Source of the DNA: Candidatus Omnitrophota bacterium
Lineage (GTDB): Bacteria > Omnitrophota > Gorgyraeia > 2-02-FULL-51-18
DNA length: 64,000 nt
Direction of reading: 5' to 3'
Assembly: GCA_016197155.1 (NCBI GenBank)
Contig: JACPWF010000024.1
Coordinates: 17,432 to 81,431, forward strand
The notes below the pieces were generated by a model. That model did not search any database. It had not been told where the DNA came from and was given only the letters and a program-made list of their open reading frames with translations. Every line of letters starts with the position of its first letter. The first letter of the stretch is position 1. Made by a program: the position numbers and the translations under genes. Below are positions 16,109 through 52,858 of the stretch, in pieces.

Positions 16109-18866
<2,758 letters not shown>

Positions 18867-18892: not shown

Positions 18893-21358
<2,466 letters not shown>

Positions 21359-21373
<15 letters not shown>

Positions 21374-22310: not shown

Positions 22311-22327
22311 CCGAAAAAGTTTTATTT

Positions 22328-22371: not shown

Positions 22372-22407
22372 CGATCAAGATAAGGACTTTTTATTTCTGA
22401 GGGTTTT

Positions 22408-25839: not shown

Positions 25840-25868
25840 TTTTACATTCATAAGAAAGGAATTTACGA

Positions 25869-27104: not shown

Positions 27105-27108
27105 AATG

Positions 27109-31945: not shown

Positions 31946-31946
31946 A

Positions 31947-33173
31947 ATGATCTCTTGCGAACAAGCTCTGAAACTCATCGAAGAAAATAATCCCTCTCCA
32001 AAAGAGGAGGAGGCATGGATTTCCGCGGCGCTGGGTCTTGTGTGCGCCGAAGACGTGAGAGCCCCCTTGGACCTGCCTTTGTACGACAATTCGGCAATGG
32101 ACGGATTCGTGTTGCGATCCGAAGATACCCGGACGGCGACAGCCGAAAAACCGGTTTTGTTGAGCATTCGAGGCGTTGTCAAAGCAGGGGATGATGGAAG
32201 GGTTCGTCTGGATGAGGGGAAAACTTACCGGATCATGACAGGCGCTCCGATCATTAAAGGAGGCGATGCGGTTCTCGAAAAAGAAAAGGCGTTTATTCAG
32301 GACAATTGTCTGGTGATGACTGCGCCGGCCCAAAAGGGAAGGAACATCCGATACCAGGCCGAAGAAGTAAAAAAATCCGAGTTGGCATTGCCCAAAGGCT
32401 CAGTGATCACTCCCGGCACCATCGGTTTTCTGGCGACGATGGGAATGAATAGAGTCACGGTTTATAAAAAACCCGCCATCTCTTTAATCACCACGGGCAG
32501 TGAGCTCACGGCTCCCGGCGGTTTATTGAGACCCGGAAAGATTTATGATTCGAACACCGCCATGATCCAGGCGGCCCTCGAGGAAATGAGAATTCGTCCT
32601 TTCTTTGTCCGGCGCTTTCATGATGTGCCGAAAACCATTCAAAAAGTGATGCGTTTTGCGTTGAAAGAAAGCGACATCGTGATTCTCATGGGGGGAGTCT
32701 CGGTCGGGGATTACGATTTTGTCAAAGGGTTGCTTGAAGAAGAAGGCGTGAAAACCATTTTCTGGAAGGTCAGTCAAAAGCCGGGGAAACCTTTGTATTT
32801 TGGCCGGAAAGAAAATCGTCTCGTTTTCGGTTTTCCGGGCAACCCTGCGAGCGTTTTCACCTGTTTCTACGAGTATGTTTACCCGGCGATCCGGCGCTTC
32901 ATGGGGTATCAAAATCCTTGTCTTTTTTCATCAAGGCTTAAACTCAAAGGATCTCTTAAGCCGGACCCTGAAAAAGTTTTATTCATTAAAAGTAAAATCG
33001 AAAACGGAGAAGACAAAGGAGTGCTCCCGCTGAGGCACCAGAAATCCCACATGATCTCTTCTTTATGCCAAGCGGACAGTTTCGTGGTGGTGCAGAATTC
33101 CGAAACCGTTCTTGAGGAAGGCGAAAAAGTTCTTGTCCACGCCCTTCCTTTTGCTTCGGAGGGCGTTTTGTGA
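31947..33173 (+). CDS. moeA: molybdopterin molybdenumtransferase MoeA
   Basis: Conserved start MISCEQALKLIEEN. ATG 31947 follows the tauE stop; the ORF frame opens at 31809. MoeA domains (LPLYDNSAMDGF, ILMGGVSVGDYD). Confidence 0.85.
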   Translation: MISCEQALKLIEENNPSPKEEEAWISAALGLVCAEDVRAPLDLPLYDNSAMDGFVLRSEDTRTATAEKPVLLSIRGVVKAGDDGRVRLDEGKTYRIMTGAPIIKGGDAVLEKEKAFIQDNCLVMTAPAQKGRNIRYQAEEVKKSELALPKGSVITPGTIGFLATMGMNRVTVYKKPAISLITTGSELTAPGGLLRPGKIYDSNTAMIQAALEEMRIRPFFVRRFHDVPKTIQKVMRFALKESDIVILMGGVSVGDYDFVKGLLEEEGVKTIFWKVSQKPGKPLYFGRKENRLVFGFPGNPASVFTCFYEYVYPAIRRFMGYQNPCLFSSRLKLKGSLKPDPEKVLFIKSKIENGEDKGVLPLRHQKSHMISSLCQADSFVVVQNSETVLEEGEKVLVHALPFASEGVL

Positions 33174-33222
33174 CCCTTCGACAAGCTCAGGGTCATGGTG
33201 AGCGAGCGAAACGAGCCGAACC

Positions 33223-33465
33223 ATGAAAATAAAAATCCTTTTTTTTGCCGAGCTTAGGGAAATTTTTGGGGGATCTCGATTTATCGACGTGAGAGAAGAC
33301 TTAACAGTCGGAGAAGTCGTGGACCTCTTGGAGGATGAACTCAACCAGTCTTATTCCAAAAGAGATTCTCTAATCTACGCGGTCAACGAAAATTTTGAAA
33401 CAACAGATAAAAAGCTAAAAAACCTCGATGAATTGGCGCTCATGACGCCCATGTCAGGGGGCTGA
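33223..33465 (+). CDS. moaD: molybdopterin synthase sulfur carrier subunit MoaD
   Basis: 80 aa. Ubiquitin-like, ends ...LALMTPMSGG (Gly-Gly C-terminus). Confidence 0.85.
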   Translation: MKIKILFFAELREIFGGSRFIDVREDLTVGEVVDLLEDELNQSYSKRDSLIYAVNENFETTDKKLKNLDELALMTPMSGG

Positions 33466-33891
33466 TTGTATCTCACGGCTGAGACGATAAATCTCCAAAG
33501 GTTCTTTTCCGAAGAGGCCCCGCCATCCTGCGGCGCGGCGGTCTCTTTTGCCGGAATGGTTAGAAACCATGATCATGGCCGTGCCGTCAAGAGTCTTTAC
33601 TACGACTGTTACCGCTCGATGGCGGAAAAAATGATAAAGGCTCTCATTGAAGAGGCTGAAATCCGATGGCAGATTGGAAAGGTGCGGGTGTTGCACCGCA
33701 TCGGCCATCTCGAAATCGGAGAGGTCGCTGTCGCCATCTCGGTGAGTTCCGCTCATCGTGCGGAGGCGTTTGAGGCCTGTCGATTTATGATTGAAGGAAT
33801 CAAAAAGAATGTTCCGATTTGGAAAAAAGAGATCTTTGAAGATGGGATGAGCGAGTGGGTGTCGTGCAAACACGCGGAGGCGGCCTCTTGA
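33466..33891 (+). CDS. moaE: molybdopterin synthase catalytic subunit MoaE
   Basis: 141 aa, TTG start. VRNHDHGRAV...VLHRIGHLEIGEVAVAISVSSAHRAEAFEACRFMIEGIKKNVPIWKKE. Confidence 0.85.
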   Translation: MYLTAETINLQRFFSEEAPPSCGAAVSFAGMVRNHDHGRAVKSLYYDCYRSMAEKMIKALIEEAEIRWQIGKVRVLHRIGHLEIGEVAVAISVSSAHRAEAFEACRFMIEGIKKNVPIWKKEIFEDGMSEWVSCKHAEAAS

Positions 33892-34463
33892 TCCGTGGGC
33901 TTGTGTTGGCAGGGGGGAAGAGTTCGCGTTTTGGCTCAAACAAGGCCGTCGCGAGTTATCAAGGCGTTCGTCTGATCGAGCGTGCCGTTTCGCTTTTGAA
34001 TGAATTAGATCTCAAGCCAATTGTGGCGGTTCGGAAAGACATGGATTATCCATTTTTGAAATGTGTAGCGATCCATGACAAATTACCGGATCAGGGTCCT
34101 TTGGGCGGTATTTATACGGCGATGACTATGTTTAAGAAAACACCCTTTTTAGTATTGACCTGCGACATGCCCCGACTGACACCGTCGGCCTTAGCAGAGC
34201 TTTTAGCCCGGCACGAAACACATTCTCTCATCACCGCTTATTCAACCCGAGACGAGACGCCTCAACCTTTTCCGGCAGTTTATGAACCCGTGCTTCTGGG
34301 CGCTGTCCGCGAGAAGTTAAAATGTGGTAACCTATCCATGCATGACTTGTTCGATCGAACTCCCACCAAAAAACTTATTCCATGGAAAGGAGAAAGCAAT
34401 ATTTTTATCAATATTAATTCCACACAAGCCCTAAAAATCTTGGAAACTCTATCCTCTGATTAG
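33855..34463 (+). CDS. mobA: molybdenum cofactor guanylyltransferase MobA
   Basis: LVLAGGKSSRFGSNKA nucleotide-binding motif. True start is probably near 33885 (TTG/ATC region overlapping the moaE stop). Confidence 0.75.
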   Translation: MGVVQTRGGGLLIRGLVLAGGKSSRFGSNKAVASYQGVRLIERAVSLLNELDLKPIVAVRKDMDYPFLKCVAIHDKLPDQGPLGGIYTAMTMFKKTPFLVLTCDMPRLTPSALAELLARHETHSLITAYSTRDETPQPFPAVYEPVLLGAVREKLKCGNLSMHDLFDRTPTKKLIPWKGESNIFININSTQALKILETLSSD

Positions 34464-40153: not shown

Positions 40154-40750
40154 ATGTTTTACGAACCCTCAGAGTTTCCGTTCACAAAACGGCTTGAGGT
40201 CTCTTACGGCAAAATAAAAGAGGAAATGGAAAACCTCACGCTTGGGCGTTTCAAGCCCTGGTACGAAAAAGATCTCTACACGAATCTTTGGCTGGTGTAC
40301 GGGCTTTACGCGATGGGGAATAAATTGAAGGACAACTGCGCCCTCTGCCCCGAGACGGTGAAAATCCTCGAAGAGGTCCCGGATCTCACGACGGCGGGTT
40401 TTTCGGCGCTCCTGCCGGGCACGCACATCAAGCCGCACGAGGGATTCACGAAAATGGTCCTGCGCTGTCACCTCGGACTTTCGGTGCCCGAGCCTGGGAC
40501 CTGCGCGCTCAAAGTGAACGGCGTCGAGCGCTCCTGGCGGGAGGGCCGGTGCCTCATCTTTGACGACACGATGACCCACGAGGCCTGGAACAAGGGCGAA
40601 AAGCCGCGTATCGTTCTTCTCATTGATTTCAAAAATAAAAAAAGACCCCTGCCGCTTTCCAAAAAAATCGAGTTCTCGGTCGTCTCGCGCCTGGTCGGGG
40701 TTGTGTACCCGTTCCTGTACGGGACGAGGAAAGAGAAGACGTCAGTTTGA
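40154..40750 (+). CDS. aspartyl/asparaginyl beta-hydroxylase family 2OG-Fe(II) oxygenase
   Basis: 198 aa. LLPGTHIKPHEG...DDTMTHEAWN (His-x-Asp/His ... His arrangement). Confidence 0.55.
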   Translation: MFYEPSEFPFTKRLEVSYGKIKEEMENLTLGRFKPWYEKDLYTNLWLVYGLYAMGNKLKDNCALCPETVKILEEVPDLTTAGFSALLPGTHIKPHEGFTKMVLRCHLGLSVPEPGTCALKVNGVERSWREGRCLIFDDTMTHEAWNKGEKPRIVLLIDFKNKKRPLPLSKKIEFSVVSRLVGVVYPFLYGTRKEKTSV

Positions 40751-42202
40751 GCCCGCGCCGAGCGCTTCAAGCGCGCGGCGAAAAGAGGGGTTGTCCAGAG
40801 AAAGCGGCGGCAGGTAGAGTCCCAGCGGCTCGCGGACCCACCAGTCGCCGGTTTTCTTTTTCTCCCCGGCGGTCGTGAAGTGATAGCTGTAGAGCACCGC
40901 GCGGATGAAGTGGGGCGGGTGAGCGGGGAAGGGGTTTCGCGCGAGCTGTTTTAAAATTTCCCGGTCGTTTTGAAGCAGTTTGTTGACCAGATTTAAAATC
41001 CACGGGTGCTCGCGCCAATCCGTCATCGCCGCGAACCACATGAGCCAGTCGAGCCTCAGGTGGTAGGGCGCCACGATCGGCGGCCGGCGGCGGACGTCAC
41101 CGGGTTTGGCTTTGAATTCATATTCCTTCCATTTTGTCGAAGGTGAAACCTCCCAGTCGTCCGTTCCCTCCAGGATCACTTCCGTGCGAATCTTCGTGAC
41201 ACTGCCGAACGCGCCGTAGGCGTTGACGAGGTGTAGCGGCTCGAAGCTCGTGTTCATCATCTGCCTCGGTGAAAAAAGATTGAGCGCGGGATGGATGCTC
41301 AAATAAAGAACCAGCGCCGAAAACACCGCGAGGACCGCTTTTCTCGGTTTTGTCGGCGGCGCGGTGGCCGGAAAAGAAACGCGGAAGAATTTTTGAAAGA
41401 ACGCCTCATCGAAACAGGACAGCGCGATCACGATCGTGAGGTAATTGAGCCACGAGAGATTTCCGCTTAGGACGAGGCATCCCTGAAAAACGATCGTGAG
41501 GATTCCCGCCGCCCAGCCCACCGGACCCGGCACGAAGTAAAACCACGGCACAACCAACTCCACAAAATGCGTGTAGAGTGTTTGGAATTTCAAAAACCCG
41601 TGCGGCAGGTGGTGAAAAGACCAGCTGAGAGGATTCGGGATCGGCTGGGTTTCGTAATGGTAGAACATGCAGGTCAAGTCGCGCCAGCAGGCGTCGCCGC
41701 GCATCTTGATGAGGCCCGCGCCGAACATGAGGCGAAAAAGTTCCCAGCGCAAGAACCAAACCACGATTTTCGGCGGCTCGGTGTCCCTTGACCCCAGAAA
41801 AATCGCGAGGAACCCCGTCTCGAGCGTCATGGTTTCCCAGCCAAAGCTGTAGAACGTCTGTCCGATATTGACAACGGACAGATAAAAAACCCAGAGCAGT
41901 CCCCACACCGCCGCGGAAAAATAAATCCCGAAACGCTCCGAGACCCCGCTCATCGCGAGGAGGGACAGACCCACACCCGCCCACACAACCGCCCCGACAA
42001 AAGCGTCCGAGGCATTGAACCAAAAAATCGAAGGGCTGTCCCAAAAACGGATCTGCTTCAGGAAGAACGAGGCGGGCAGGAGGCCGTGCTCGCCGATGAG
42101 CGCGCGGAACTGCAGGGCCGTCGACACGAACGCGATGAGGTAGATGAACCCGAGCGCCCTTTGGAAACAAACGCGGAATCCCATGGCGCTATTATGAACC
42201 AT
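40742..42202 (-). CDS. lipase maturation factor (LMF1-like) family membrane protein
   Basis: 486 aa polytopic. FYHYETQPIPNPLSWSFHHLPHGFLKFQTLYTHFVELVVPWFYF conserved block. Confidence 0.6.
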   Translation of the reverse strand: MVHNSAMGFRVCFQRALGFIYLIAFVSTALQFRALIGEHGLLPASFFLKQIRFWDSPSIFWFNASDAFVGAVVWAGVGLSLLAMSGVSERFGIYFSAAVWGLLWVFYLSVVNIGQTFYSFGWETMTLETGFLAIFLGSRDTEPPKIVVWFLRWELFRLMFGAGLIKMRGDACWRDLTCMFYHYETQPIPNPLSWSFHHLPHGFLKFQTLYTHFVELVVPWFYFVPGPVGWAAGILTIVFQGCLVLSGNLSWLNYLTIVIALSCFDEAFFQKFFRVSFPATAPPTKPRKAVLAVFSALVLYLSIHPALNLFSPRQMMNTSFEPLHLVNAYGAFGSVTKIRTEVILEGTDDWEVSPSTKWKEYEFKAKPGDVRRRPPIVAPYHLRLDWLMWFAAMTDWREHPWILNLVNKLLQNDREILKQLARNPFPAHPPHFIRAVLYSYHFTTAGEKKKTGDWWVREPLGLYLPPLSLDNPSFRRALEALGAGSN

Positions 42203-42219: not shown

Positions 42220-42700
42220 ATTAGAAATTTGGGAAAAAAAGCGGCCCTTAGCGTTTCCGCCGCCGTCTTATGAGGAAGAGGCTTTAATTTGTTAAAATTA
42301 ATACAAAAAATATCTAGAATATTGATAGAAATAATCCAATCAATAAAATATAAGAATTTTTGATAATAATTTGATAATCATACTACTTTGCAATAATGAT
42401 TAATATGGGTAATTTACTCCACTTTATAATATAAATTATAAATTTAATGGGAAAAATGTATTATAAATTGAATTTTAATTGATAATTATAGCCACTTTTA
42501 GAAATTTAATTTGTAATAAATGACCCTATTATTTGATGTGATAAAAAACTCCAGCCTGATGCCGGAGGAGGTATTTCGCGGGTTTATAACAGCGGGCGGG
42601 CCGGAAGGATCGATGAAAATATATTTGACAGTAATACTTATATATGGTACATTTTTATTGTCATATATAGAAGTAGAATAGTCATATACGAAAGGCAAAG
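42220..42700. other. AT-rich (~20-25% GC) non-coding island upstream of cysD
   Basis: Seen directly: 480 bp of A/T-rich sequence in a ~58% GC genome. No convincing ORF (the 66-aa 42498-42698 frame is low complexity). Confidence 0.6.
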
Positions 42701-43503
<803 letters not shown>

Positions 43504-43504
<1 letters not shown>

Positions 43505-44778
43505 TGGACGAGGCGCTGCGCATCGTATTCGTGGGCCATGTGGATCACGGCAAATCGACGCTGGTGGGACGGCTGTTGGCCGAAACCGACTCCCTCACGC
43601 CGCAGAAAATCCGCCAGGTGGAGGAGATCTGCAAGGAGCGCGGGATGAAATTCGAGTACGCGTTTTTGCTCGACGCGCTCGAAGAAGAACAGGACCAGGG
43701 CATCACCATAGACGTTTCCCAGGTTTATTTCAAATCCTCGAGGCGCGCTTACCGCATCATCGACGCGCCGGGCCACAAGGAATTCTTAAAGAACATGATC
43801 TCCGGCGCCTCGACGGCGGACGTGGCGATTCTTTTGATTGACGCGGAGGAAGGCCTGCGCGAGCAGTCCAAGCGTCACGCCACGCTCCTTTCTCTTTTGG
43901 GCGTCAAAACCATTCTCATCGTCATCAATAAAATGGATTTGGTCGATTACAAAAAAGAAGTTTTTGACGCCATCCGCGCGGAATACGAAAAACACCTGGC
44001 TTCTCTTAAAATCACCCCGCGCGCCTTCATTCCTCTGGCGGCCTATGACGGCGAAAATCTCGTCAAAAAAAGCCAAAAAATGCCCTGGTATGACGGCCCG
44101 TCGCTTTTGGAAACGCTGGATGGCCTGGAACCGCCCGCCTCGAGCGAAGACAAGCCTCTGCGTTTTCCCCTCCAGGATGTTTACAAGTTCGACAAGCGGA
44201 GAATTCTGGCCGGCCGGATCGAGTCCGGCCGTATCCATGCCGGCGATGAGCTTTTGTTTTTGCCCTCGGGGAAAACGGGCGTTGTCCAATCCATCGAAAA
44301 GTGGCGCCCGCCACAAACCAGCGGCGCCTGCCCGCCTTTGCGGGAAGCCGCCGCGGGCGAGTCTATCGGCATGGTTCTCGAAGACCAGATTTTTGTCGAG
44401 CGCGGAGAAGTGGCCTGCCTGCCGGCTACCGCCGCGCAGGTGGCGCGGTCGCTTTTTGTCCACATTTTCTGGATGGGCAACCTTCACCTGGAAAAGGGCG
44501 CCAAATGCGTTTTGAAATTGACCACGCAGGAAGTCGAGTGCGTGGTCGAGGCGATTTTAAAAGTCGTCAACTCCTCGACGCTGGATGAGATTTCCAAAAG
44601 CTCGCGCTCGGTGGCCAAAAACGAGGTGGCCGAGCTCATTTTGCTTGCCAAAAAACCCGTGGCGTTTGACCCCTTTGACGCGGTGACCGAAACGGGGCGC
44701 TTTGTGCTGGTGCATGACCGGCAGGTGCGCGGCGGCGGGATCATTTTAAAAAAAGCGGAGCCCTTTAGTGCGATTTGA
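43504..44778 (+). CDS. cysN: sulfate adenylyltransferase subunit 1 (GTPase)
   Basis: MDEALRIVFVGHVDHGKSTLVGRLL G1 motif, DAPGH, NKMD. ATG overlaps the cysD stop (TGATG). The 588-aa track ORF is an upstream frame extension. Confidence 0.9.
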
Positions 44779-45523
44779 CATTTTAAAATTAAACAAAGAA
44801 TTTGAAAAGGCCTCGGCGGTGGCGGTCCTTCAGTGGGCGCTTAAAAATTTTTATCCCAAGCTCGCGCTGGCCTCGTCCTTCGGAGCGGAGGACGTTGTCC
44901 TCATCGACATTCTCGTGAAGCTCGAGCCCGGGATACGCGTGTTCACGCTGGACACGGGAAGATTGAACGAAGAGACGTACGAGGTGATGGACCGCATCCG
45001 GGAGAAGTATAAAATTTCCGTCGAGTCCTATTTTCCGGATCGGAAAAAAGTGGAGGCCCTCGAACGGGCGAAGGGATTTTATTCTTTCCGCGAGTCCGTT
45101 CAAAATCGCAAAGAGTGCTGTGGGATCCGGAAGGTCGAGCCGCTCGGTCGCGCGCTCAAAGGTCTGGAGGCGTGGGTGACGGGCCTGCGCCGCGCGCAGT
45201 CGGTGACGCGCACGGGCATTGAAAAAATTGAAAAAGACGAGGCGCACGGCGGGATTTTAAAAATCAGTCCGCTGGCGGATTGGACGAACGACGACGTGTG
45301 GGCCTACATTAAAAAGAACGGCGTTCCGTACAACCGCCTGCACGACCAGGGGTATCCGTCGATCGGCTGTGCGCCGTGCACGCGCGCGGTGAAGCCCGGC
45401 GGGGACATCCGTTCCGGTCGCTGGTGGTGGGAAAATCCCGATCACAAGGAGTGCGGACTCCATGTAACAGACAGGAGTCAGGCATCAAGAGACAGGATTC
45501 AGGAAAAGAAAAACAATAAATGA
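44768..45523 (+). CDS. cysH: adenylylsulfate (APS)/PAPS reductase, Fe-S type
   Basis: 251 aa. SSFGAEDVVLIDIL, CGIRKVEPL, SIGCAPCT...KECGLH (two Cys pairs typical of APS reductases). Confidence 0.85.
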   Translation: MRFDILKLNKEFEKASAVAVLQWALKNFYPKLALASSFGAEDVVLIDILVKLEPGIRVFTLDTGRLNEETYEVMDRIREKYKISVESYFPDRKKVEALERAKGFYSFRESVQNRKECCGIRKVEPLGRALKGLEAWVTGLRRAQSVTRTGIEKIEKDEAHGGILKISPLADWTNDDVWAYIKKNGVPYNRLHDQGYPSIGCAPCTRAVKPGGDIRSGRWWWENPDHKECGLHVTDRSQASRDRIQEKKNNK

Positions 45524-46137
45524 GAGTGGTTTTAAGGAGAGTCCATAAGAGTTTTGAGCAAAAAGGCCAGAGAGTGCAGGTCCTCTCCGACGTGAATCTT
45601 GCCGTCGAGGAGGGGGAGTTCATCTGCGTGCTCGGGCCTTCGGGTTGCGGCAAATCGACGCTCATCTCGCTCATCGCGGGTCTGGAGTTTCCGGATTCGG
45701 GAGAGGTGTTCGTCGATTCCAAAATCGTCGAGGGGCCCTCAAGCGACCGCCTGGTGGTTTTTCAGGAGGCCGCGCTTTTTCCGTGGCTGTCGGTGCTCGG
45801 CAATGTGGAGTTTGGCCTGAAACTCGCGCGCGTGCCGGAAAAAGAGCGCCGGGAGCGGGCGCTTGAGGCGATTAAAATGGTGCACCTGGCGCGTTTCGTG
45901 AACGCCCATCCGCACGAGCTATCCGGCGGCATGAAACAGCGCGCCGCGCTCGCTCGCGCGCTCGTCCTGGATCCCAAAATTCTCCTCATGGACGAGCCGT
46001 TCGCCGCGCTCGACGCCCAGACGCGCAACCTCCTGCAGGTCGAGCTTCAGGAAATCTGGCAGAGGACCAAAAAGACGATTTTATTCGTCACGCACAACGT
46101 GCGCGAGGCGACGTTTCTGTCCGACCGCGTTTTGTAG
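45520..46137 (+). CDS. ABC transporter ATP-binding protein (NitT/TauT family), truncated by an in-frame TAG at 46135-46137
   Basis: Walker A GPSGCGKST, signature LSGGMKQRAALARAL, Walker B LLMDEP, H-loop VTHN. After the TAG the same frame continues through the family-typical ARPGTIKKEHPISIPRPRK to a TGA at 46357-46359. Confidence 0.8.
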   Translation: MRVVLRRVHKSFEQKGQRVQVLSDVNLAVEEGEFICVLGPSGCGKSTLISLIAGLEFPDSGEVFVDSKIVEGPSSDRLVVFQEAALFPWLSVLGNVEFGLKLARVPEKERRERALEAIKMVHLARFVNAHPHELSGGMKQRAALARALVLDPKILLMDEPFAALDAQTRNLLQVELQEIWQRTKKTILFVTHNVREATFLSDRVL

Positions 46138-46355
46138 ATCACCGCGCGGCCCGGCACGATCAAAAAAGAGCACCCGATTTCCATTCCGCGTCCGCGGAAA
46201 GAGCAGGACCCGAACCTTTTGGTCGTTCAAACCCGGATCATGAGTTCGCTGAAGGACGAGATCGAAAAAGTGGCGCGCGAGGAGCTCGACACGGATTACA
46301 AAGTTTCCAAGGAAGGCGTTTTGATCCCCGTTGACCGGAATGTGGGGAGCAACAT

Positions 46356-46760
46356 TTGACGATTAAAATCCACAAAGGCGTTTACGACCGGATGATTGCC
46401 CACGCCAAGTCCGGTTATCCGAACGAGGCGTGCGGGATCCTGGCCGGAAAGCCGAAAGGCCCGGCGGGCGTTTTTTATCCCATGCGCAACGCGGACGAAT
46501 CGCCGATCAGTTATTTCATGGACCCCAGGGAACAGCTGGGCGTTTTCAAAAAAATGAGAGAGGCCGGTCTCGAGATGAAGGGGATTTTTCATTCGCATGT
46601 GGCGAGTGCCGCCTATCCTTCGCAAAAAGACGTGCGGCTCGCGTTTTATCCGGAAGCGAGCGCGGTGATTGTGTCGTTGTCGGATTTGAAAAAGCCGGTC
46701 GTGTGTTCGTTTAAAATTGATCGGGAAACCGTGACGGAGGAGAAAATAGAAATTGTCTAG
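46356..46760 (+). CDS. JAMM/MPN+ metalloprotease (Mec+/CysO-hydrolase-like)
   Basis: 134 aa. NEACGIL plus HSHVASAAYPSQKD (JAMM motif E...HxH...S..D). TTG start overlapping the upstream frame. Confidence 0.8.
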   Translation: MTIKIHKGVYDRMIAHAKSGYPNEACGILAGKPKGPAGVFYPMRNADESPISYFMDPREQLGVFKKMREAGLEMKGIFHSHVASAAYPSQKDVRLAFYPEASAVIVSLSDLKKPVVCSFKIDRETVTEEKIEIV

Positions 46761-46986
46761 CGCCGATTCCGAAACCGTCCGGATCCTTTTGAACGGAAAA
46801 CCGCAGGCCGTCCGCGCGGGCCTGTCGGTCGCGGATCTTCTTTTAAAATGGAAGATCCGGCCGGAGCTCGTGACGGTCGAGCTGAACGGGACGATTTTGC
46901 AGAAGCTCGACTATGAAACGGCGGAATTGAGACAGGGCGACAAGGTGGAATTTGTTTTTTACATGGGAGGTGGCGCTTGGGCATAA
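46753..46986 (+). CDS. ThiS/MoaD-like sulfur carrier protein (CysO-like) with a C-terminal extension after Gly-Gly
   Basis: 77 aa ending ...VEFVFYMGGGAWA. Beta-grasp carrier. Confidence 0.75.
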   Translation: MSSADSETVRILLNGKPQAVRAGLSVADLLLKWKIRPELVTVELNGTILQKLDYETAELRQGDKVEFVFYMGGGAWA

Positions 46987-47906
46987 AGGCCGGCACGGAT
47001 GTTTTGGAGCTCATCGGCAACACGCCGATGGTGAGGCTGAGGAAGGTCGTCGGGAAAAATGACGCGGCGATCTTCGCGAAGCTGGAAATGTTCAATCCCG
47101 GCGGGAGCGTGAAGGACCGCATCGCGCTGAACATGGTCGAACAGGCCGAGAAAAAAGGAATTTTAAAACCGGGGTCCGTGATCGTCGAGCCCACGAGCGG
47201 CAACACGGGCATAGGCCTGGCGATCGTCGGGGCCGTGAAAGGCTACCGCGTGATTCTCACGATGCCCGAGGCGATGAGCCAGGAGCGGATTCAGATTTTG
47301 CAGAGTTTCGGCGCCGAGGTCGTGCTCACGTCGGCGCGCGACGGGATGGTGGGCGCGGTCGAAAAGGCGCGAGAGATCGTCGCCTCGACGAAGGACGCCT
47401 TTATGCCTCAACAGTTCATGAACCCGGACAACCCGGCGGCGCACCGCAAGACGACCGCGAGGGAGATTTTACGCGACACGGACGGCACGATCGACGCGTT
47501 CGTGGCCGGTGTCGGGACCGGCGGCACCATCACGGGCGTCGGAGAGGTTTTAAAGAAACACAATCCCAAAATCAGGATCGTCGCCGTCGAGCCGAAAAAT
47601 TCGAGCGTCCTCTCCGGCGGAAAGCCGGGGCCGCACATGATCCAGGGCATCGGCGCGGGATTTGTGCCGGACGTTTTGGACCGCGAGGTGATCGACGAGA
47701 TCCTCACGGTCGACGACCACGAGTCCTATCAAATGGCCAAGCGCCTCACGCGCGAGGAGGGCATTTTTGCGGGCCTCTCCTGCGGTGCCGCCTGCATCGG
47801 CGCTTTGAAAACGGCCAAGTCGCTCGGAAACGGAAAGACGGTCGTCGTGGTGTTTCCCGATTCGGGCGAGCGTTACCTGAGCGTCGAACCGTACTTCAAT
47901 ATTTGA
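46977..47906 (+). CDS. cysM: cysteine synthase (CysM/CysK family, PLP-dependent)
   Basis: 309 aa. Lys-PLP region KLEMFNPGGSVKDRIAL, GNTGIGLAIVGA, GTGGTITGVG. Confidence 0.85.
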   Translation: MGIKAGTDVLELIGNTPMVRLRKVVGKNDAAIFAKLEMFNPGGSVKDRIALNMVEQAEKKGILKPGSVIVEPTSGNTGIGLAIVGAVKGYRVILTMPEAMSQERIQILQSFGAEVVLTSARDGMVGAVEKAREIVASTKDAFMPQQFMNPDNPAAHRKTTAREILRDTDGTIDAFVAGVGTGGTITGVGEVLKKHNPKIRIVAVEPKNSSVLSGGKPGPHMIQGIGAGFVPDVLDREVIDEILTVDDHESYQMAKRLTREEGIFAGLSCGAACIGALKTAKSLGNGKTVVVVFPDSGERYLSVEPYFNI

Positions 47907-48694
47907 TCCGAGGCTCCATGAACGCCAAATCGCTGTCCGTTTATTTTTTGAAACAAATCCTTTTTTACGCCGCGCTGGTTTTGGCGTGGCAATTTTTATT
48001 TTCCCTCAAATTCTGGCCGCAGTATCTTTTTCCCTCGCCGGGGCAGGTGCTCGAGACGCTCGCCGAGGGCTTCCGCAACCGGACGTTTCTCGTCGGGATC
48101 GCCGTCAGTTTGAGGCGGTTATCCGCGGGGTATCTGATCTCGGTTTTTTTCGGCGCCGCGCTCGGCCTCTTGATCGGAAAATTCAAAATATTGGACGAGA
48201 CGCTCGGCGGATTTATTGTGGGATTGCAGACCCTGCCCAGCATCTGCTGGCTGCCGCTGGCGATCCTGTGGTTCGGGCTGAATGAGGCGGCGATCATTTT
48301 CGTCGTCGTGATGGGTTCGCTTTTGTCGATCACGATGGCGACGGACAGCGGCGTCAAAAACATCCAGCCGATCACCCTGCGCGCGGGACGCAACATGGGC
48401 GCCAGGGGCAAGGACCTGTTTCTTCAGGTGATCCTGCCCGCGGCGCTTCCGTCCATCGTGATGGGATTGAAACAGGGCTGGTCTTTCGCGTGGCGCTCGC
48501 TGATGGCTGGGGAAATCCTGTTTGTGAGCCTCGGGCTCGGGCATCTCCTCAACATGGGCCGGGAGCTGAACGACATGAGCCAGGTGATCGCGGTCATGAT
48601 CGTGATCGTGGCGATCGGCGTCATCGTGGACAACCTGATCTTTGGCTCGGTGGAGAAAAAGGTCAGGCAAGTATGGGGACTGGAAAGAAAGTGA
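47903..48694 (+). CDS. ABC transporter permease (NitT/TauT family)
   Basis: 263 aa, 6 TM. Permease with an EAA-like loop. Confidence 0.8.
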   Translation: MIRGSMNAKSLSVYFLKQILFYAALVLAWQFLFSLKFWPQYLFPSPGQVLETLAEGFRNRTFLVGIAVSLRRLSAGYLISVFFGAALGLLIGKFKILDETLGGFIVGLQTLPSICWLPLAILWFGLNEAAIIFVVVMGSLLSITMATDSGVKNIQPITLRAGRNMGARGKDLFLQVILPAALPSIVMGLKQGWSFAWRSLMAGEILFVSLGLGHLLNMGRELNDMSQVIAVMIVIVAIGVIVDNLIFGSVEKKVRQVWGLERK

Positions 48695-49689
48695 AAAAGT
48701 TTTTCGCGTTTTCGGGACTGCTTCTTTTTTTAAACACGGCGGCCCATCCCTTCACCGGAAATAAGGAAGCGCCGGCCGTGCGCGTGGGGCATTTTTCCAA
48801 TCTCACGCACGCGCAGGCGCTCGTCGGCCGCGCGAACGGCTGGTTTAACGAGAGGCTTTCTCCGGACGCGCCACCCGAGTGGAAAATTTTTAACGCGGGG
48901 CCTTCGGCGGCCGAGGCGATTTTTGCGGGGCAGGTCGACATCGCCTACATCGGCCCGAGCCCGGCGGTGAACGGTTTTATCAAATCAAACGGCGAGGCCC
49001 TGCGCATCGTCGCGGGCGCGGCCTCGGGGGGCGCGGCACTCGTCGTGCGCGAGGATGCGGGAATCAAAACCGTCGGGGACTTTCACGGCAAAAAAATCGC
49101 TTCCCCCCAGCTCGGGAACACGCAGGACGTGGCGATCCGCGCGTGGCTTTCGAAAAATAAATTCGCTTTGGCGGATCGGGGCGGCGACGTGCAGGTCCTG
49201 CCGGTTTCGAACGCGGACCAACAAACACTTTTCCTGAAAAAAGAGATCGACGGCGCCTGGACCGTCGAGCCGTGGGTGTCGCTTCTCATGGAGAAGGCGA
49301 ACGGGAAAATTTTCCTCGAAGAGTCCGGGCTTTGGCCCGGCGGGAAATACGCGACCACCGTCGTCGTGGTGAGGAAAAAATTTCTCGACGAGCGCCCGGC
49401 GCTCGTAAAAAAATTCCTGAAGGCCCACGCCGACCTGACGGATTGGATCCGCCGGAACCCCGTGGAGGCCAAAGGCCTTATGGCCGCGGAAATCGAAAGA
49501 GAAACGACAAAGGCCCTGCCCCCGGCTGTTCTGGACGAGGCCTTCAAGCGGATCGAATTTTTGACCGACCCGCTCGAGGCCTCCGTCAAAACCCAGGCCG
49601 ACGCCGCGTACGAGGCGGGGTTTTTGAAGAAAAAGCCCGACCTCGCGGGGCTCTTTGATTTAAAGATTTTGAAGGAACTTTCCGCTTGA
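48673..49689 (+). CDS. ABC transporter periplasmic substrate-binding protein (NMT1/TauA/SsuA-like)
   Basis: The track ORF opens at 48490 in the permease overlap. A signal-peptide start MGTGKKVKKFFAFSGLLLFLNTAA is at ATG 48673 (or GTG 48691). NMT1-like fold. Confidence 0.75.
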   Translation: MGTGKKVKKFFAFSGLLLFLNTAAHPFTGNKEAPAVRVGHFSNLTHAQALVGRANGWFNERLSPDAPPEWKIFNAGPSAAEAIFAGQVDIAYIGPSPAVNGFIKSNGEALRIVAGAASGGAALVVREDAGIKTVGDFHGKKIASPQLGNTQDVAIRAWLSKNKFALADRGGDVQVLPVSNADQQTLFLKKEIDGAWTVEPWVSLLMEKANGKIFLEESGLWPGGKYATTVVVVRKKFLDERPALVKKFLKAHADLTDWIRRNPVEAKGLMAAEIERETTKALPPAVLDEAFKRIEFLTDPLEASVKTQADAAYEAGFLKKKPDLAGLFDLKILKELSA

Positions 49690-49714
49690 CAACGTATAGT
49701 TTAGTATATACACT
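49686..49714 (+). promoter_or_regulatory. putative sigma70-like promoter and operator palindrome of the brnTA module
   Basis: TTGACA (49686-49691), 17-nt spacer, TACACT. The spacer contains the inverted repeat GTATAgtttagTATAC. Confidence 0.4.
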
Positions 49715-49723
49715 CTAATTGGG

Positions 49724-50026
49724 GTGCCGGTTATGGAATGGTTCAAAAATGCCTCGGAGTTCGAATGGGATCCGGGGAATAAGGATAAGAACTTTGCCAA
49801 GCACCGGGTCACCAATGAAGAGTGCGAAGAGGCGTTTTTCGATCCCCATAAACGTTTTCGGAGCGTGCCCTCGGAGTGGGGGGAGGAGAGGCATCTTCTG
49901 GTCGCCAAGACCAAGGCGGGGAGGTTATTGTTCATTGTTTTTACTTTGAGGCGTAGTAAAATACGCGTGATACCCGCCCGTGATTTAAACCGGCGCGAGA
50001 GGCATCTTTATGAAAAAGAATCTTAA
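49724..50026 (+). CDS. brnT: BrnT family ribonuclease toxin (DUF497)
   Basis: 100 aa. FEWDPGNKDKNFAKHRVTNEECEEAFFDP ... IRVIPARDLNRRERHLYE. Confidence 0.8.
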   Translation: MPVMEWFKNASEFEWDPGNKDKNFAKHRVTNEECEEAFFDPHKRFRSVPSEWGEERHLLVAKTKAGRLLFIVFTLRRSKIRVIPARDLNRRERHLYEKES

Positions 50027-50282
50027 ACTTCACAAATTTCACAATGAGGACGAAGAGAGAAAATTTTGGGCGACTCTCGATTTGGCGGATTATTTCGAAT
50101 CGAAAGATTTGGCGTCGGTTTCTTTTCCAAATCTCAAACCTTCCTCGCGATCGATTTCCATCCGGCTGTCCGAACCGATGCTGATTCGTTTAAAGGAACA
50201 GGCCAACGAGCTTCACATTCCTTACCAGTCGCTGATCAAACAGTACATCGCCAGAGGGATCCGTCAGCCTTATGCGGCCTAA
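50010..50282 (+). CDS. brnA: BrnA antitoxin (RHH-like)
   Basis: 90 aa. Overlaps brnT by 17 nt. C-terminal HIPYQSLIKQYIARGI. Confidence 0.7.
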   Translation: MKKNLKLHKFHNEDEERKFWATLDLADYFESKDLASVSFPNLKPSSRSISIRLSEPMLIRLKEQANELHIPYQSLIKQYIARGIRQPYAA

Positions 50283-50294
50283 CCGGGTGAATCC

Positions 50295-51557
50295 ATGAGT
50301 TACGTCAAAGGCCTCAAATGCCGCGAGTGCCACCGTCTCTATCCGACCGAGGCCGTGTACGTCTGCGAATTTTGCTTCGGGTCGCTGGAGGTGGATTATG
50401 ATTACGACAAGATTAAAAGCGTCCTGTCGCGGCGAAAAATCGAGGAAGGGCCCAAAAGCATCTGGCGCTACCGCGAGCTTTTGCCGATTGACGGACGGCC
50501 CACGGTCGGTTTCCACGCGGGTTTCACGCCGCTTTTTCGCGCCGACAATCTCGCGCGGGAGCTGGGGCATTCCGAGCTTTACGTGAAGGACGATTCGGTT
50601 TGCCATCCGACTCTTTCCTTTAAGGACCGCGTCGTGGCGGTGGCGCTCACGAAGGCCAAAGAGCTCGGGTTTAAAACCGTCGCGTGCGCCTCGACGGGGA
50701 ATCTCGCGGGATCCGTGAGCGCGCAGGCGGCCTGGGCGGGGCTCAACCGTTTTATTTTCATTCCGGCGGACCTCGAGCACGGCAAGGTCGTGGGCTCGCT
50801 CACGTACGCGCCGAATCTCGTCGCGGTGGAGGGAAATTATGACGAGGTGAACCGGCTCTGCGCGGAGATCGCCGCGCGCTACCGCTGGGCGTTTGTGAAT
50901 ATCAATATCCGTCCCTATTACGCCGAGGGTTCGAAGACCTACGGATTCGAAGTCGCCGAACAGCTCGGGTGGCGCACGCCGCGGCACCTGGTGGTGCCCG
51001 TGGCGAGCGGGTCGCTTTTGGTCAAAATTTGGAAGGCGTTCAATGAATTTAAAAAACTGGGCCTCATCGATTCGGTGGATTCCAAAATCCACGCCGCGCA
51101 GGCCGAGGGCTGTTCGCCCGTCGTCGCGGCCCTCCGCGAAAAGAGCGAAATCATTAAACCCGTGAAACCGAAAACCATCGCCAAGTCCCTGGCCATCGGC
51201 AATCCCGCAGACGGCATTTACGCGTGCGACGCCGTGAAGGAAAGCGGCGGCTCTGGCGGAGCCGTGACGGACGCGGAGATCGTCGAAGGCATCAAGCTCC
51301 TGGCGCGCACCGAGGGGATTTTCACGGAGACCGCGGGAGGCGTCACCGTCGCCGTGACGAAAAAATTAATTGAAAAAGGCGTCATTCCCAAAAACGAATC
51401 CTGCGTCATCTGCATCACCGGCAACGGCCTGAAAACCCAGGAGGCCGTCTCCGACCACATCGGCAAGCCCTATAAAATCAAACCCACTTTAGAATCTTTT
51501 GAAACGTCCCTGAGAAACGAATCGACAATCAAGGAGGAAGTATGGCAGTCAAGGTAA
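50295..51557 (+). CDS. thrC: threonine synthase family PLP enzyme with N-terminal zinc-ribbon (ThrC or MetM-like)
   Basis: 420 aa. [19 protein letters not shown] zinc ribbon. PLP lysine region [18 protein letters not shown]. Fold-type II. Confidence 0.8.
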
Positions 51558-52063
51558 GAATCCCCACTCCGCTTCAAAAACTCACGAATAACCAAAGCGA
51601 GGTCGCCTGCGAGGCGAAAAATATCGACGAGATGCTCGCCCAGCTCGAGAAAAAACACGCGGGGATCAAGGAACGCCTGTGCGACGAGGGCGGCAAGCTC
51701 CGGCGCTTCGTGAATATTTACGTGAACGAGGAGGACATCCGGTTTCTCGAGGGGCAGTCCACGGCGCTCAAAGACGGCGACGACGTCTCGATCATTCCCG
51801 CGATCGCCGGCGGCGCGCAGGGACTGGTGAAAAAAAGAGTGACGCTGGTTTTTCCTCAGGACCAGATCCGGGAACCCGCGGTTTTCACGATGGCCAAGCA
51901 ATTTGACATCCTGCCGAATATCCGTAAAGCCCGCGTCACCGAGAGCGTGGGGGAGATGATGCTCGAGCTCGAGGGCACGGAAAAAAATTTGGCCGAGGGG
52001 ATCAAGTACCTCGAATCGCGCGGGATCAAAGTGGAACCGGTGACGGGGGAGAGCGCTTTATAA
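51542..52063 (+). CDS. MoaD/ThiS-like sulfur carrier domain fused to a C-terminal NIL domain
   Basis: 173 aa. N-terminal ubiquitin-like part ends ...[11 protein letters not shown], then a NIL/ferredoxin-like domain ([33 protein letters not shown]...). Confidence 0.65.
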
Positions 52064-52083
52064 TTGAAATTTAAATTTTGTTT

Positions 52084-52102
52084 CGCCTTCACGGCGTTTT
52101 TT
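52084..52102 (+). terminator. weak rho-independent terminator-like hairpin after the MoaD-NIL gene
   Basis: CGCC-TTCAC-GGCG followed by TTTTTT. Confidence 0.3.
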
Positions 52103-52217
52103 GCGGGGTACTGCCTGACGGACCTGATCTTTCGGGCGAGAAAAATTCCTTACCCCTTTGAGGCGTTTGGGGTGTTGGCGGGACTGGGACTGGCGGCGTG
52201 GGCATATGGGTGGGCCA

Positions 52218-52409
52218 ATGAAAAATAAATTCGGATTTCTCCTTTTTTTTGTTTCCTTTATTCTTTTCGTCGCGCCGCTTCGCGCCGAGGAGGCGGGGCT
52301 CTCGTCCAAAATAGACGGGCTTGAGCGGAAACAGGAAGAAATTTTAAAAAAACTCGACGAGATCAAGGCCGAACTCGAAGTCGTCAAGGTCCGCGCCTCC
52401 CAGCGATGA
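52218..52409 (+). CDS. small secreted coiled-coil protein
   Basis: Signal peptide MKNKFGFLLFFVSFILFVAPLRA followed by a heptad-like segment. Its stop overlaps the Rrf2 start (ATGA). Confidence 0.4.
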   Translation: MKNKFGFLLFFVSFILFVAPLRAEEAGLSSKIDGLERKQEEILKKLDEIKAELEVVKVRASQR

Positions 52410-52858
52410 AATTTTCCACGCGCACGTTTTACGGTTTGAAGGCGATCCTCGTTTTGGCCAGCCGTTTTGGCGAAGGGTCGCTTTCGGTTTCGCAGATCGC
52501 CAGGAAAGAGGGGATCTCGGTGGCGTATCTCGAGCAGATTTTGAACGCGCTCAAGAAAAAAGGCTTCGTGAAGAGCGTGCGCGGGCCGCAGGGCGGCTAC
52601 ATTTTGTCGAAGAAGCCGTCGGAGATCACGCTGAAAGCGCTTTTTTACGCGCTCGAGAAGCCGGGTTTTCTCGAACCGAACGGGCGCGCGCCGGAGGCGG
52701 CCGGCCAGGACGACGTGGCCGCGGCGAACCTCATTTTTTGGGAAAAACTGCGCGGATCGATCGAGGAAACGCTCGAGGCGCTGAACCTGAAAGGCATTCT
52801 GGACGAGGCCCGCCGCCGGAAAACGAAAGTTTCTTCCCGGCACACCTTTAACATTTAG
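52406..52858 (+). CDS. Rrf2 family transcriptional regulator
   Basis: 150 aa. YGLKAILVLA...SVSQIARKEGISVAYLEQILNALKKKGFVKSVRGPQGGY. Winged HTH. Confidence 0.85.
   Translation: MKFSTRTFYGLKAILVLASRFGEGSLSVSQIARKEGISVAYLEQILNALKKKGFVKSVRGPQGGYILSKKPSEITLKALFYALEKPGFLEPNGRAPEAAGQDDVAAANLIFWEKLRGSIEETLEALNLKGILDEARRRKTKVSSRHTFNI

What the first reader, a model, noticed from the sequence alone, without database searches (positions are those of the whole stretch)
45520..49689. Protein-thiocarboxylate cysteine module (JAMM protease, GG-AWA carrier, CysM) embedded in an ABC transporter next to cysDNH
Gene order is ABC ATPase, JAMM/MPN+ protease, ThiS-like carrier ending GG-AWA, CysM-like synthase, ABC permease, then binding protein. 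A carrier with residues after the Gly-Gly needs C-terminal trimming, which is the job of the adjacent JAMM enzyme (as in QbsD/QbsE and Mec+/CysO systems). Together with cysD, cysN and cysH directly upstream this looks like a CysO-dependent cysteine route. Nesting the biosynthetic genes inside a taurine/sulfonate-type ABC transporter operon is unusual. No E1 (ThiF/MoeB) and no sulfite reductase are present in the window.
Basis: partly seen in the sequence, partly recalled or inferred. Interest (0 to 1): 0.55.

Follow-up and report, generated by a model that had tools for sequence, protein, structure and literature searches.

The report
Two-carrier thiocarboxylate sulfur amino-acid operon
This is a conserved sulfur-assimilation operon of an uncultured Omnitrophota bacterium that most likely makes cysteine (and, just downstream, homocysteine) from sulfur carried on small ubiquitin-like proteins; it is a new variant of a known kind of pathway, not a new kind.

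Summary
The labels need correcting.

- **Synthase:** it is CysK-type (58% identical to M. tuberculosis CysK1, 39% to CysM) and lacks the CysM Arg220 position.
- **77-aa carrier:** it is ThiS/HcyS-type, not CysO-type.
- **True CysO homologue:** it lies downstream at 51542-52063.

The best evidence that carrier and synthase work together is that ThiS is translationally fused to CysK in 16 of 84 related loci. Every unfused ThiS carries a variable tail after MGGG.

In outgroup lineages the same cluster also holds ThiF (E1) and a sulfite reductase with TusA. In this clade both are missing from the locus, and the E1 gene appears to have been lost from between CysO and NIL, which are now fused.

The interleaved ABC transporter is accessory: three relatives lack it. 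Here its ATPase carries an in-frame TAG.

Verdict: new variant of a known kind, moderate interest.

The parts
42701..43504 (+). cysD, sulfate adenylyltransferase small subunit
   Evidence: NF003587 362 bits, above cutoff 195. PF01507.
43504..44778 (+). cysN, GTPase subunit of ATP sulfurylase, with no APS-kinase domain
   Evidence: TIGR02034 348 bits, above cutoff 336.
44768..45523 (+). cysH, thioredoxin-dependent APS reductase type (APS to sulfite)
   Evidence: TIGR02055 277 bits, above cutoff 235. CC...CxxC cysteines are visible in the translation.
45520..46359 (+). NitT/TauT-type ABC ATPase, interrupted by an in-frame TAG at 46135-46137
   Evidence: PF00005. The frame continues to a TGA at 46357-46359. 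Relatives have Glu at the TAG position and encode intact proteins of 279-295 aa. Identity to relatives is 76-84%.
46356..46760 (+). JAMM/MPN+ zinc metalloprotease (Mec/HcyD-like)
   Evidence: PF14464 1.1e-24. PDB 2kks 1.3e-30. Invariant E24 and H79-S-H81...S89..D92. Relatives are named 'CysO-cysteine peptidase' or 'M67 metallopeptidase'.
46753..46986 (+). ThiS/HcyS-type sulfur carrier pro-protein, ...YMGGG followed by the tail AWA
   Evidence: TIGR01683 62.7 bits, above cutoff 37.5. PDB 2k5p (Geobacter) 2.3e-11. Homologues carry variable tails or are fused to CysK.
46977..47906 (+). CysK-type PLP cysteine synthase, proposed acceptor enzyme for the ThiS thiocarboxylate
   Evidence: TIGR01139 cysK 450 bits, above cutoff 351. 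TIGR01138 cysM 314 bits, below cutoff 394. 58% identical to Mtb CysK1 and 39% to Mtb CysM. Fused to ThiS in 16 related loci.
47903..48694 (+). ABC permease (TauC/SsuC/NrtB-like)
   Evidence: PF00528. NCBIfam hits to SaoP, TauC, SsuC and NtrB are all below their cutoffs.
48670..49689 (+). Periplasmic binding protein, SsuA family, with a signal peptide
   Evidence: TIGR01728 217 bits, above cutoff 163.5. Distant PDB matches to TauA (6e-11) and SsuA.
49724..50282 (+). BrnT toxin and CopG/BrnA antitoxin pair, an insertion specific to this genome and not part of the pathway
   Evidence: PF04365 and PF12441. Absent at this position in all relatives.
50295..51557 (+). Threonine-synthase-like PLP enzyme with an N-terminal Zn ribbon; proposed MetM-like homocysteine synthase
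   Evidence: TIGR00260 299 bits. PDB ThrC matches start only at residue 53-56. Always adjacent to the CysO-like carrier in 36 loci.
51542..52063 (+). CysO/MetO-like carrier (residues 1-91, ending AIAGG) fused to a NIL domain (residues 98-165)
   Evidence: PDB 3dwg_C (Mtb CysO) 2e-21, with the alignment ending exactly at GG91. PF02597 plus PF09383. In outgroups the carrier, ThiF and NIL are three separate genes in that order.
52406..52858 (+). Rrf2-family regulator, conserved at the end of the operon
   Evidence: PF02082 2.4e-27. Present at the same position in relatives.

Best explanation
The region 42701-52858 is one sulfur-assimilation operon with two protein-thiocarboxylate branches that share a single JAMM protease.

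1. CysDN makes APS and CysH reduces it to sulfite. These are family assignments above curated cutoffs.
2. Sulfite is reduced to sulfide, and the two carriers are adenylated and thiocarboxylated, by a sulfite reductase and a ThiF/MoeB-type E1 encoded elsewhere in the genome. This step is inferred.
3. The JAMM enzyme cuts after the C-terminal Gly-Gly of each pro-carrier. It removes AWA from the ThiS-type carrier and the NIL domain from the CysO-type carrier. This is inferred from the intact JAMM motif, the universal tails and the fusions.
4. The CysK-type synthase adds the ThiS thiocarboxylate to its PLP-aminoacrylate, probably made from O-acetylserine. After an S-to-N acyl shift, the JAMM hydrolyses the ThiS-cysteine amide, releasing cysteine and recycling the carrier. 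This is inferred by analogy with Mec/CysO/CysM and HcyD/HcyS/MetY.
5. The threonine-synthase-like enzyme does the same with O-phosphohomoserine and the CysO-type thiocarboxylate to give homocysteine (MetM/MetO analogy).

The interleaved NitT/TauT-type ABC transporter supplies a sulfur source of unknown identity. It occupies the place held by a PiT-family permease in outgroup clusters, is dispensable, and in this assembly is knocked out or mis-sequenced.
For: - **Conserved operon.** It recurs in 22 distinct close loci from independent assemblies.
- **ThiS~CysK fusions.** They occur in 10 of 22 close and 6 of 62 distant loci. The distant ones include MAGs labelled WOR-1, Saganbacteria, Ratteibacteria and Actinomycetota. 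The junction is conserved: MGGG, 4-25 residues, then LxLIGNTP.
- **Tails.** Every unfused ThiS homologue has 1-30 variable residues after MGGG.
- **JAMM catalytic motif** is invariant.
- **Complete outgroup clusters.** They read cysH, PiT or Sat, JAMM, hemB, hemL, Sir-TusA, ThiS~CysK, ThrC-like, CysO-like, ThiF, NIL, so every component a thiocarboxylate pathway needs is present.
- **Closest solved relatives.** The window ThiS (Geobacter, 2k5p) and JAMM (2kks) match proteins whose source organisms, by my recollection of the PDB records, are species listed in Iyer et al.'s class 4e 'ThiS/MoaD-JAB-E1 sulfur metabolism operons'.
- **CysO-type domain** ends exactly at GG91 before NIL.
- **A shared E1 elsewhere is plausible.** The window has moaD and moaE but no moeB, and Mtb MoeZR serves both MoaD and CysO.
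- **Precedent for cleavage of carrier-enzyme fusions:** Mtb MoaX and HvJAMM1/SAMP1-MoaE (titles and abstracts).
Against: - The synthase is by sequence an ordinary CysK. Nothing in it was shown to favour a protein substrate over sulfide.
- No E1, sulfite reductase or TusA lies within 10 kb of the operon in any of the 22 close loci, and I could not show that these genomes encode them at all.
- No reference MetM, MetO or HcyS sequence was available for direct comparison.
- No biochemistry exists for any ThiS-CysK pair that I could find.
- cysE and thrB were not located.
Confidence: 0.62

Rival explanations
1. The synthase is a standard sulfide-dependent O-acetylserine sulfhydrylase. ThiS and JAMM sit in the operon only because they are co-regulated sulfur genes that serve another thiocarboxylate-dependent product.
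For: The sequence is fully CysK-like: it scores above the cysK cutoff, is 58% identical to Mtb CysK1, and has the canonical GPHMIQGIGAGF loop. No E1 is in the locus.
Against: - Recurrent in-frame ThiS~CysK fusions across several phyla argue for direct coupling.
- No other candidate acceptor enzyme lies next to ThiS.
- In outgroups ThiS~CysK follows Sir-TusA directly.
Confidence: 0.2
2. ThiS and JAMM form a ubiquitin-like conjugation and deconjugation switch (SAMP/HvJAMM1-like) that reversibly modifies and regulates CysK or other enzymes, rather than carrying sulfur.
For: The only NCBIfam hit of the JAMM is 'desampylase', at 72 bits and below the cutoff of 130. HvJAMM1/SAMP1 regulates MPT synthase in archaea. 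Covalent ThiS~CysK fusions exist.
Against: - No E2 or E3 and no E1 lies in the locus.
- The context is purely sulfur assimilation (cysDNH here, Sir-TusA in outgroups).
- The carrier family is that of the class 4e sulfur operons.
Confidence: 0.07
3. The 77-aa protein is the thiamine ThiS, and its position here is incidental.
For: It scores above the cutoff of the thiS equivalog model TIGR01683. Iyer et al. note occasional links between ThiS and cysteine synthase genes in thiamine contexts.
Against: - No thiG, thiF, thiH or thiC lies in the window.
- Thiamine and Moco operons never contain a JAB gene.
- The protein has a C-terminal tail and is fused to CysK in relatives.
Confidence: 0.03

Closest known systems
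Wolinella succinogenes HcyS-Ala / HcyD / HcyF / MetY / Sir pathway (Krishnamoorthy and Begley 2011; cited as ref 34 in PMC5764234; details from my own knowledge), which is Iyer et al. 2006 class 4e operons
   Same: - A ThiS-type carrier with residues after Gly-Gly.
- An adjacent JAMM that trims the carrier and later releases the amino acid.
- Sulfate-activation genes and a sulfur transporter in the same cluster.
- The closest solved relatives of the window ThiS and JAMM match proteins whose source organisms, by my recollection of the PDB records, are class 4e species.
   Different: - The PLP enzyme is a CysK-type cysteine synthase, not O-acetylhomoserine sulfhydrylase.
- E1, SirA/TusA and sulfite reductase are absent from the locus.
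- The transporter is NitT/TauT-type and interleaved with the biosynthetic genes.
- Carrier and synthase are often one polypeptide in relatives.
Mycobacterium tuberculosis Mec-CysO-CysM (with MoeZ)
   Same: The logic is the same: a carrier thiocarboxylate plus a PLP aminoacrylate gives a carrier-cysteine adduct, which a JAMM hydrolyses. The E1 is encoded elsewhere and may be shared with MoaD.
   Different: - The synthase is 39% identical to CysM against 58% to CysK1.
- It lacks the Arg220 position and keeps the loop that CysM has deleted.
- The carrier next to it is ThiS-type, not CysO-type.
- The window's true CysO homologue partners a ThrC-like enzyme instead.
Streptomyces albulus MetM/MetO/Mec/MoeZ homocysteine pathway (Hasebe et al. 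2024, as summarised in GapMind 2026)
   Same: This applies to the downstream pair at 50295-52063. It has a threonine-synthase homologue next to a CysO-like carrier that needs JAMM maturation.
   Different: - Here the carrier is fused to a NIL domain.
- NIL is a separate conserved gene after ThiF in outgroups.
- No SAM riboswitch was found.
- No direct sequence comparison with MetM or MetO was possible.
SsuABC/TauABC aliphatic sulfonate and taurine ABC importers
   Same: The binding protein passes the SsuA-family cutoff. The ATPase and permease resemble TauBC, SsuBC and NrtCD.
   Different: - No SsuD or TauD-type desulfonating enzyme is in the window.
- All equivalog models score below their cutoffs.
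- The genes are split around JAMM-ThiS-CysK.
- The ATPase has a premature stop here.

Membership tests
Mtb-type CysO/CysM/Mec cysteine pathway | The synthase is a CysM-type O-phosphoserine sulfhydrylase (Arg220, shortened loop) | tested here: not met
   The cysM models score below their cutoffs. Identity to verified Mtb CysM is 39%, with Gln aligned to Arg220 and a 7-residue loop retained. Identity to Mtb CysK1 is 58%. The role of Arg220 is from my own knowledge.
Mtb-type CysO/CysM/Mec cysteine pathway | The carrier next to the synthase is a CysO-type (MoaD-like) protein | tested here: not met
   The 77-aa protein hits only ThiS structures at E up to 1 and does not hit 3dwg_C. CysO similarity (2e-21) belongs to the 173-aa protein at 51542-52063.
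Mtb-type CysO/CysM/Mec cysteine pathway | A JAMM/MPN+ hydrolase with an intact metal site is adjacent | tested here: met
   PF14464 hit. E24 and the HSH-x7-S-xx-D motif are invariant across homologues.
Mtb-type CysO/CysM/Mec cysteine pathway | A MoeZ-type E1 (ThiF plus rhodanese) is present in the genome | not testable with these tools
   There is none in the 64-kb window. E1 searches found only outgroup clusters.
ThiS/JAB/E1 sulfur-metabolism operons (Iyer class 4e; HcyS system) | A ThiS-like carrier with residues after Gly-Gly, plus an adjacent JAB peptidase | tested here: met
   The carrier ends MGGG-AWA. All 23 unfused homologues have tails. The JAMM gene overlaps the ThiS start.
ThiS/JAB/E1 sulfur-metabolism operons (Iyer class 4e; HcyS system) | E1 without rhodanese, SirA/TusA and sulfite reductase are in the same neighbourhood | tested here: not met
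   They are absent from the window and from all 22 close loci. They are present in 44 (E1) and 34 (Sir/TusA) of 62 distant loci.
ThiS/JAB/E1 sulfur-metabolism operons (Iyer class 4e; HcyS system) | Sulfate activation and reduction genes and a sulfur transporter are in the operon | tested here: met
   cysD, cysN and cysH are directly upstream and an ABC transporter is interleaved.
ThiS/JAB/E1 sulfur-metabolism operons (Iyer class 4e; HcyS system) | The PLP partner is O-acetylhomoserine sulfhydrylase (MetY) | tested here: not met
   The partner is a fold-type II CysK (PF00291, TIGR01139), not a MetY-type enzyme.
CysK (O-acetylserine sulfhydrylase A) | Scores above the curated equivalog cutoff, with the PLP lysine, Asn loop and glycine loop present | tested here: met
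   TIGR01139 450.5 bits, above cutoff 351. SVKDR, TSGNTG and GVGTGGT are present and align with Mtb CysK1.
MetM/MetO homocysteine pathway | A ThrC homologue paired with a CysO-like carrier that has a C-terminal extension, with Mec and E1 | tested here: inconclusive
   The pairing, the extension (NIL) and the JAMM are present. No E1 is in the locus. No MetM or MetO reference sequence was obtainable. The description comes only.
SsuABC/TauABC sulfonate importers | An intact ATPase, permease and SsuA/TauA-type binding protein, plus a desulfonating oxygenase | tested here: inconclusive
   The binding protein passes TIGR01728. The ATPase has an in-frame TAG. The ATPase and permease equivalogs score below their cutoffs. 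No SsuD or TauD appeared among the ORFs of 170 aa or more that were scanned.
Thiamine ThiS | Encoded with thiF, thiG or thiH, ends at Gly-Gly, and has no JAB partner | tested here: not met
   No thi genes are in the window. A tail follows GG. A JAMM is adjacent. Relatives are fused to CysK. JAB genes are never found in thiamine operons.

The most novel reading that the evidence does not exclude
In this Omnitrophota clade both sulfur carriers are made as inactive pro-proteins, ThiS-tail or ThiS~CysK and CysO~NIL. JAMM cleavage would then be the control point of sulfur amino-acid synthesis. The NIL domain is the methionine-binding regulatory module of MetN (from my own knowledge) and is required with DUF39 for homocysteine synthesis. 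It could sense methionine or homocysteine and gate release of the homocysteine-branch carrier. More modestly, CysK-type enzymes, not only actinobacterial CysM, would be natural users of protein thiocarboxylates across several candidate phyla.
Probability: 0.15. Interest if true: 0.7.

Novelty: new variant of a known kind. Interest (0 to 1): 0.45.

Why it matters
Protein-thiocarboxylate cysteine synthesis is usually described as an actinobacterial speciality built on the CysM/O-phosphoserine enzyme.

These loci suggest that an ordinary-looking CysK has been coupled, and often physically fused, to a ThiS-type carrier in Omnitrophota and in MAGs labelled Saganbacteria/WOR-1, Ratteibacteria and other uncultured lineages. 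In those same loci a MetM/MetO-like homocysteine branch sits beside it and shares one protease.

Three consequences follow if this is right:
- Automated annotation of these genes as 'cysK', 'thiS', 'thrC' and 'moaD' would mis-state how such organisms assimilate sulfur.
- NIL would be added as a conserved component of the homocysteine branch.
- The fusions offer convenient substrates for testing JAMM processing.

It does not open a new kind of biology.

Tried and rejected
- **Exact look-ups of window proteins.** The window CysK and JAMM products found no contig on record.
- **Key papers not held.** Hasebe 2024 and Krishnamoorthy and Begley 2011 were unavailable. MetM/MetO and HcyS comparisons therefore rest on secondary citations and my own knowledge.
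- **Exhaustive HMMER search with the 77-aa carrier**. It gave 2070 hits, but 50% clustering hides the fusions (only one 378-aa hit), so it added little.
- **Hunt for the clade's E1.** An Omnitrophota ThiF was the query, with three context look-ups. All returned only 'complete' outgroup clusters. The E1 of the window clade was not located.
- **Rfam scan.** It found only tRNAs, with no SAM or other riboswitch.
- **SaoP/SaoA, the best NCBIfam labels for the transporter.** These belong to a selenoprotein-associated organometallic system and score below their cutoffs, so I rejected them as an assignment.
- **First E1 regex.** It missed ThiF proteins that read NNLHRQ, so I replaced it with BLAST using a Pfam-verified ThiF.
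- **NirB as the missing sulfite reductase.** It is a bona fide NirB (915 bits) inside a nitrate-assimilation cluster. I do not propose it as the sulfite reductase, though this is not excluded.
- **Structure prediction.** I did not run it, because a single-chain model could not test carrier docking.

Full report
**Source and layout**

The JAMM protein and the 173-aa carrier-NIL protein are each 100% identical to NCBI proteins from a 'Candidatus Omnitrophica bacterium' MAG, on a contig of 83,890 bp. The window also holds a replication-origin-type gene set, a nitrate-assimilation cluster and molybdenum-cofactor genes.

**What is at 45520-49689**

| Gene | Coordinates | Note |
|---|---|---|
| ABC ATPase | 45520-46359 | in-frame TAG |
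| JAMM | 46356-46760 | |
| ThiS-like carrier | 46753-46986 | 77 aa, ends ...YMGGGAWA |
| PLP cysteine synthase | 46977-47906 | |
| ABC permease | 47903-48694 | |
| SsuA-family binding protein | about 48670-49689 | |

- cysD, cysN and an APS-reductase-type cysH lie directly upstream (42701-45523).
- Successive genes overlap by 4-25 nt. JAMM, ThiS, CysK and the permease all start at TTG inside the preceding gene. This fits one translationally coupled operon.
- A good promoter-like site lies upstream of cysD at 42625-42653.

- Relatives have GAG (Glu) at that position and encode intact proteins of 279-295 aa.
- The ATPase is among the best conserved proteins of the operon, at 76-84% identity.
- The stop is therefore a recent mutation or an assembly error.

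**More than chance**

Look-ups with homologous JAMM proteins and a scan of species-representative genomes gave 84 distinct loci.

The 22 loci of the close clade (JAMM 60-78% identical) share this order wherever the contig is long enough:

cysD-cysN-cysH-[ATPase]-JAMM-ThiS-CysK-[permease-binding protein]-ThrC-like-carrier~NIL-Rrf2

Three of them (L007/L008, L017) lack all three transporter genes, while the rest of the operon is unchanged. The transporter is therefore a functional unit but an accessory one.

**What the parts are**

*The synthase is CysK-type.*
- It passes the cysK equivalog (450 bits, cutoff 351) and fails both cysM models.
- Its best solved relative is M. tuberculosis CysK1 (1.6e-109).
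- I checked my recalled Mtb CysM sequence against PDB 3dwg_A and it is identical.
- The window enzyme is 39% identical to CysM and 58% to CysK1.
- The window enzyme has Gln, in the canonical GPHMIQGIGAGF loop, where Mtb CysM has Arg220. By my own knowledge that residue binds the phosphate of O-phosphoserine. The window enzyme also keeps seven residues that CysM lacks.

*The 77-aa carrier is ThiS-type.*
- It scores above the TIGR01683 cutoff. Its solved relatives are ThiS proteins, the best being the Geobacter entry 2k5p.

*The JAMM is intact.*
- The E...HSH-x7-S-xx-D motif is intact.
- The JAMM is 1.3e-30 to PDB 2kks.
- By my recollection of the PDB records, 2k5p is from Geobacter metallireducens and 2kks from Desulfitobacterium hafniense.
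- Both species are listed in Iyer et al.'s class 4e. [quoted passage not shown] It includes the Wolinella HcyS system.

**Evidence that carrier and synthase work together**

- ThiS is fused in frame to CysK in 10 of the 22 close loci and in 6 distant ones.
- The distant fusions include MAGs labelled WOR-1, Saganbacteria, Ratteibacteria and Actinomycetota.
- The junction is always MGGG, then 4-25 variable residues, then the CysK N-terminus.
- Every unfused homologue has a tail of 1-30 unconserved residues after MGGG.
- A carrier that is always born blocked or fused, next to an intact JAMM, is what a processed sulfur carrier should look like.
- Cleavage of carrier-enzyme fusions has precedent in Mtb MoaX and in HvJAMM1 with SAMP1-MoaE.

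A ThrC-like enzyme with an extra N-terminal Zn ribbon lies at 50295-51557. It follows a BrnT/BrnA toxin-antitoxin pair that only this genome has at that spot.
- At 51542-52063 is a 173-aa protein. Its residues 2-91 match Mtb CysO (3dwg_C, 2e-21), and the alignment ends exactly at the carrier's Gly-Gly.
- A 6-residue linker and a NIL domain follow.
- This pair resembles the MetM/MetO route from O-phosphohomoserine to homocysteine, which also needs Mec and MoeZ.
- The window's real CysO homologue therefore belongs to a probable homocysteine branch, not the cysteine branch.

**Where E1 and sulfite reductase went**

- tblastn finds no ThiF, Sir, TusA, Sat or PiT in the window. None lies within 10 kb in any close locus.
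- Outgroup clusters (L031, L035, L042, L090, L093, L095, L096) read: cysH, PiT or Sat, JAMM, hemB, hemL, Sir-TusA, ThiS~CysK, ThrC-like, CysO-like (with a tail), ThiF, NIL of 79-84 aa.
- In the window clade the ThiF gene is gone from between CysO and NIL, and the two are fused.
- L058 looks like an intermediate: CysO and NIL are adjacent and unfused, with no ThiF.
- The window has moaD and moaE but no moeB, so an E1 must in any case be encoded elsewhere if the cofactor pathway works. A single E1 serving both MoaD and CysO is known in mycobacteria.
- I could not locate that E1.

**The transporter**

- The binding protein passes the SsuA-family cutoff and is distantly related to TauA and SsuA structures.
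- The ATPase and permease are NitT/TauT-like, with no equivalog above its cutoff.
- No desulfonating enzyme is nearby.
- In outgroups a PiT-family permease sits between cysH and JAMM, where the ATPase sits here.
- The simplest inference is uptake of the pathway's sulfur source. The substrate is unknown.

**Verdict**

It is also incomplete, because it misses the homocysteine branch. The system is a new variant of a known kind.

Noticed in passing
window 46135-46137: There is an in-frame TAG in the ABC ATPase gene where all relatives have Glu (GAG). The remaining 73 codons are intact and alignable. It is either a recent nonsense mutation or an assembly error.
   Followed up: partly
window 49724-50282: A BrnT toxin (PF04365) and a CopG/BrnA antitoxin (PF12441) are inserted between the binding-protein gene and the ThrC-like gene. 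A promoter-like site lies at 49686-49714. The pair is absent at this position in every related locus.
   Followed up: partly
window 51542-52063; L090 17154-18632; L058 12849-13436: Outgroups encode the CysO-like carrier, ThiF and a small NIL protein as three consecutive genes. The window clade has lost ThiF and fused the carrier to NIL. L058 has carrier and NIL adjacent but unfused.
   Followed up: yes
L093 10832-12304: In one Omnitrophota MAG the small NIL protein is followed by an HcyBio/DUF39 (PF01837) protein. This is the methanogen/Desulfovibrio-type homocysteine enzyme family that is known to need a NIL-ferredoxin partner. It links NIL to homocysteine synthesis in a second way.
   Followed up: no
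window 52406-52858: An Rrf2-family regulator is conserved at the 3' end of the operon in all relatives. It may be a CymR-like regulator of sulfur amino-acid genes (the analogy is from my own knowledge).
   Followed up: no
window 21621-34463: This is a nitrate-assimilation and Moco cluster. It holds a GAF-ANTAR regulator, NirB (TIGR02374, 915 bits), an MFS transporter, a molybdopterin oxidoreductase, moaA, moaC-mog, a TauE/SafE-family permease embedded among the Moco genes, moeA, moaD (ends GG, no tail), moaE and mobA. There is no moeB.
   Followed up: partly
window 40742-42202 (- strand); L004 1792-3264: A bacterial homologue of the eukaryotic lipase maturation factor (PF06762 and PF25179) lies just upstream of the operon. 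It is also found near the operon in a relative.
   Followed up: no
window 7239-21373: This is a replication-origin-type neighbourhood: parB, parA, mnmG, yidC, dnaA (13473-14846), dnaN, gyrB and gyrA. GC skew changes sign near 10 kb.
   Followed up: no
L058 10406-10648: In this Omnitrophica WOR_2 genome a possibly TusA-like 80-aa protein (judged by eye from a DVRDMTC motif, with no profile search run) sits between JAMM and CysK, where ThiS sits elsewhere. The ABC ATPase and permease are adjacent, upstream of JAMM.
   Followed up: no
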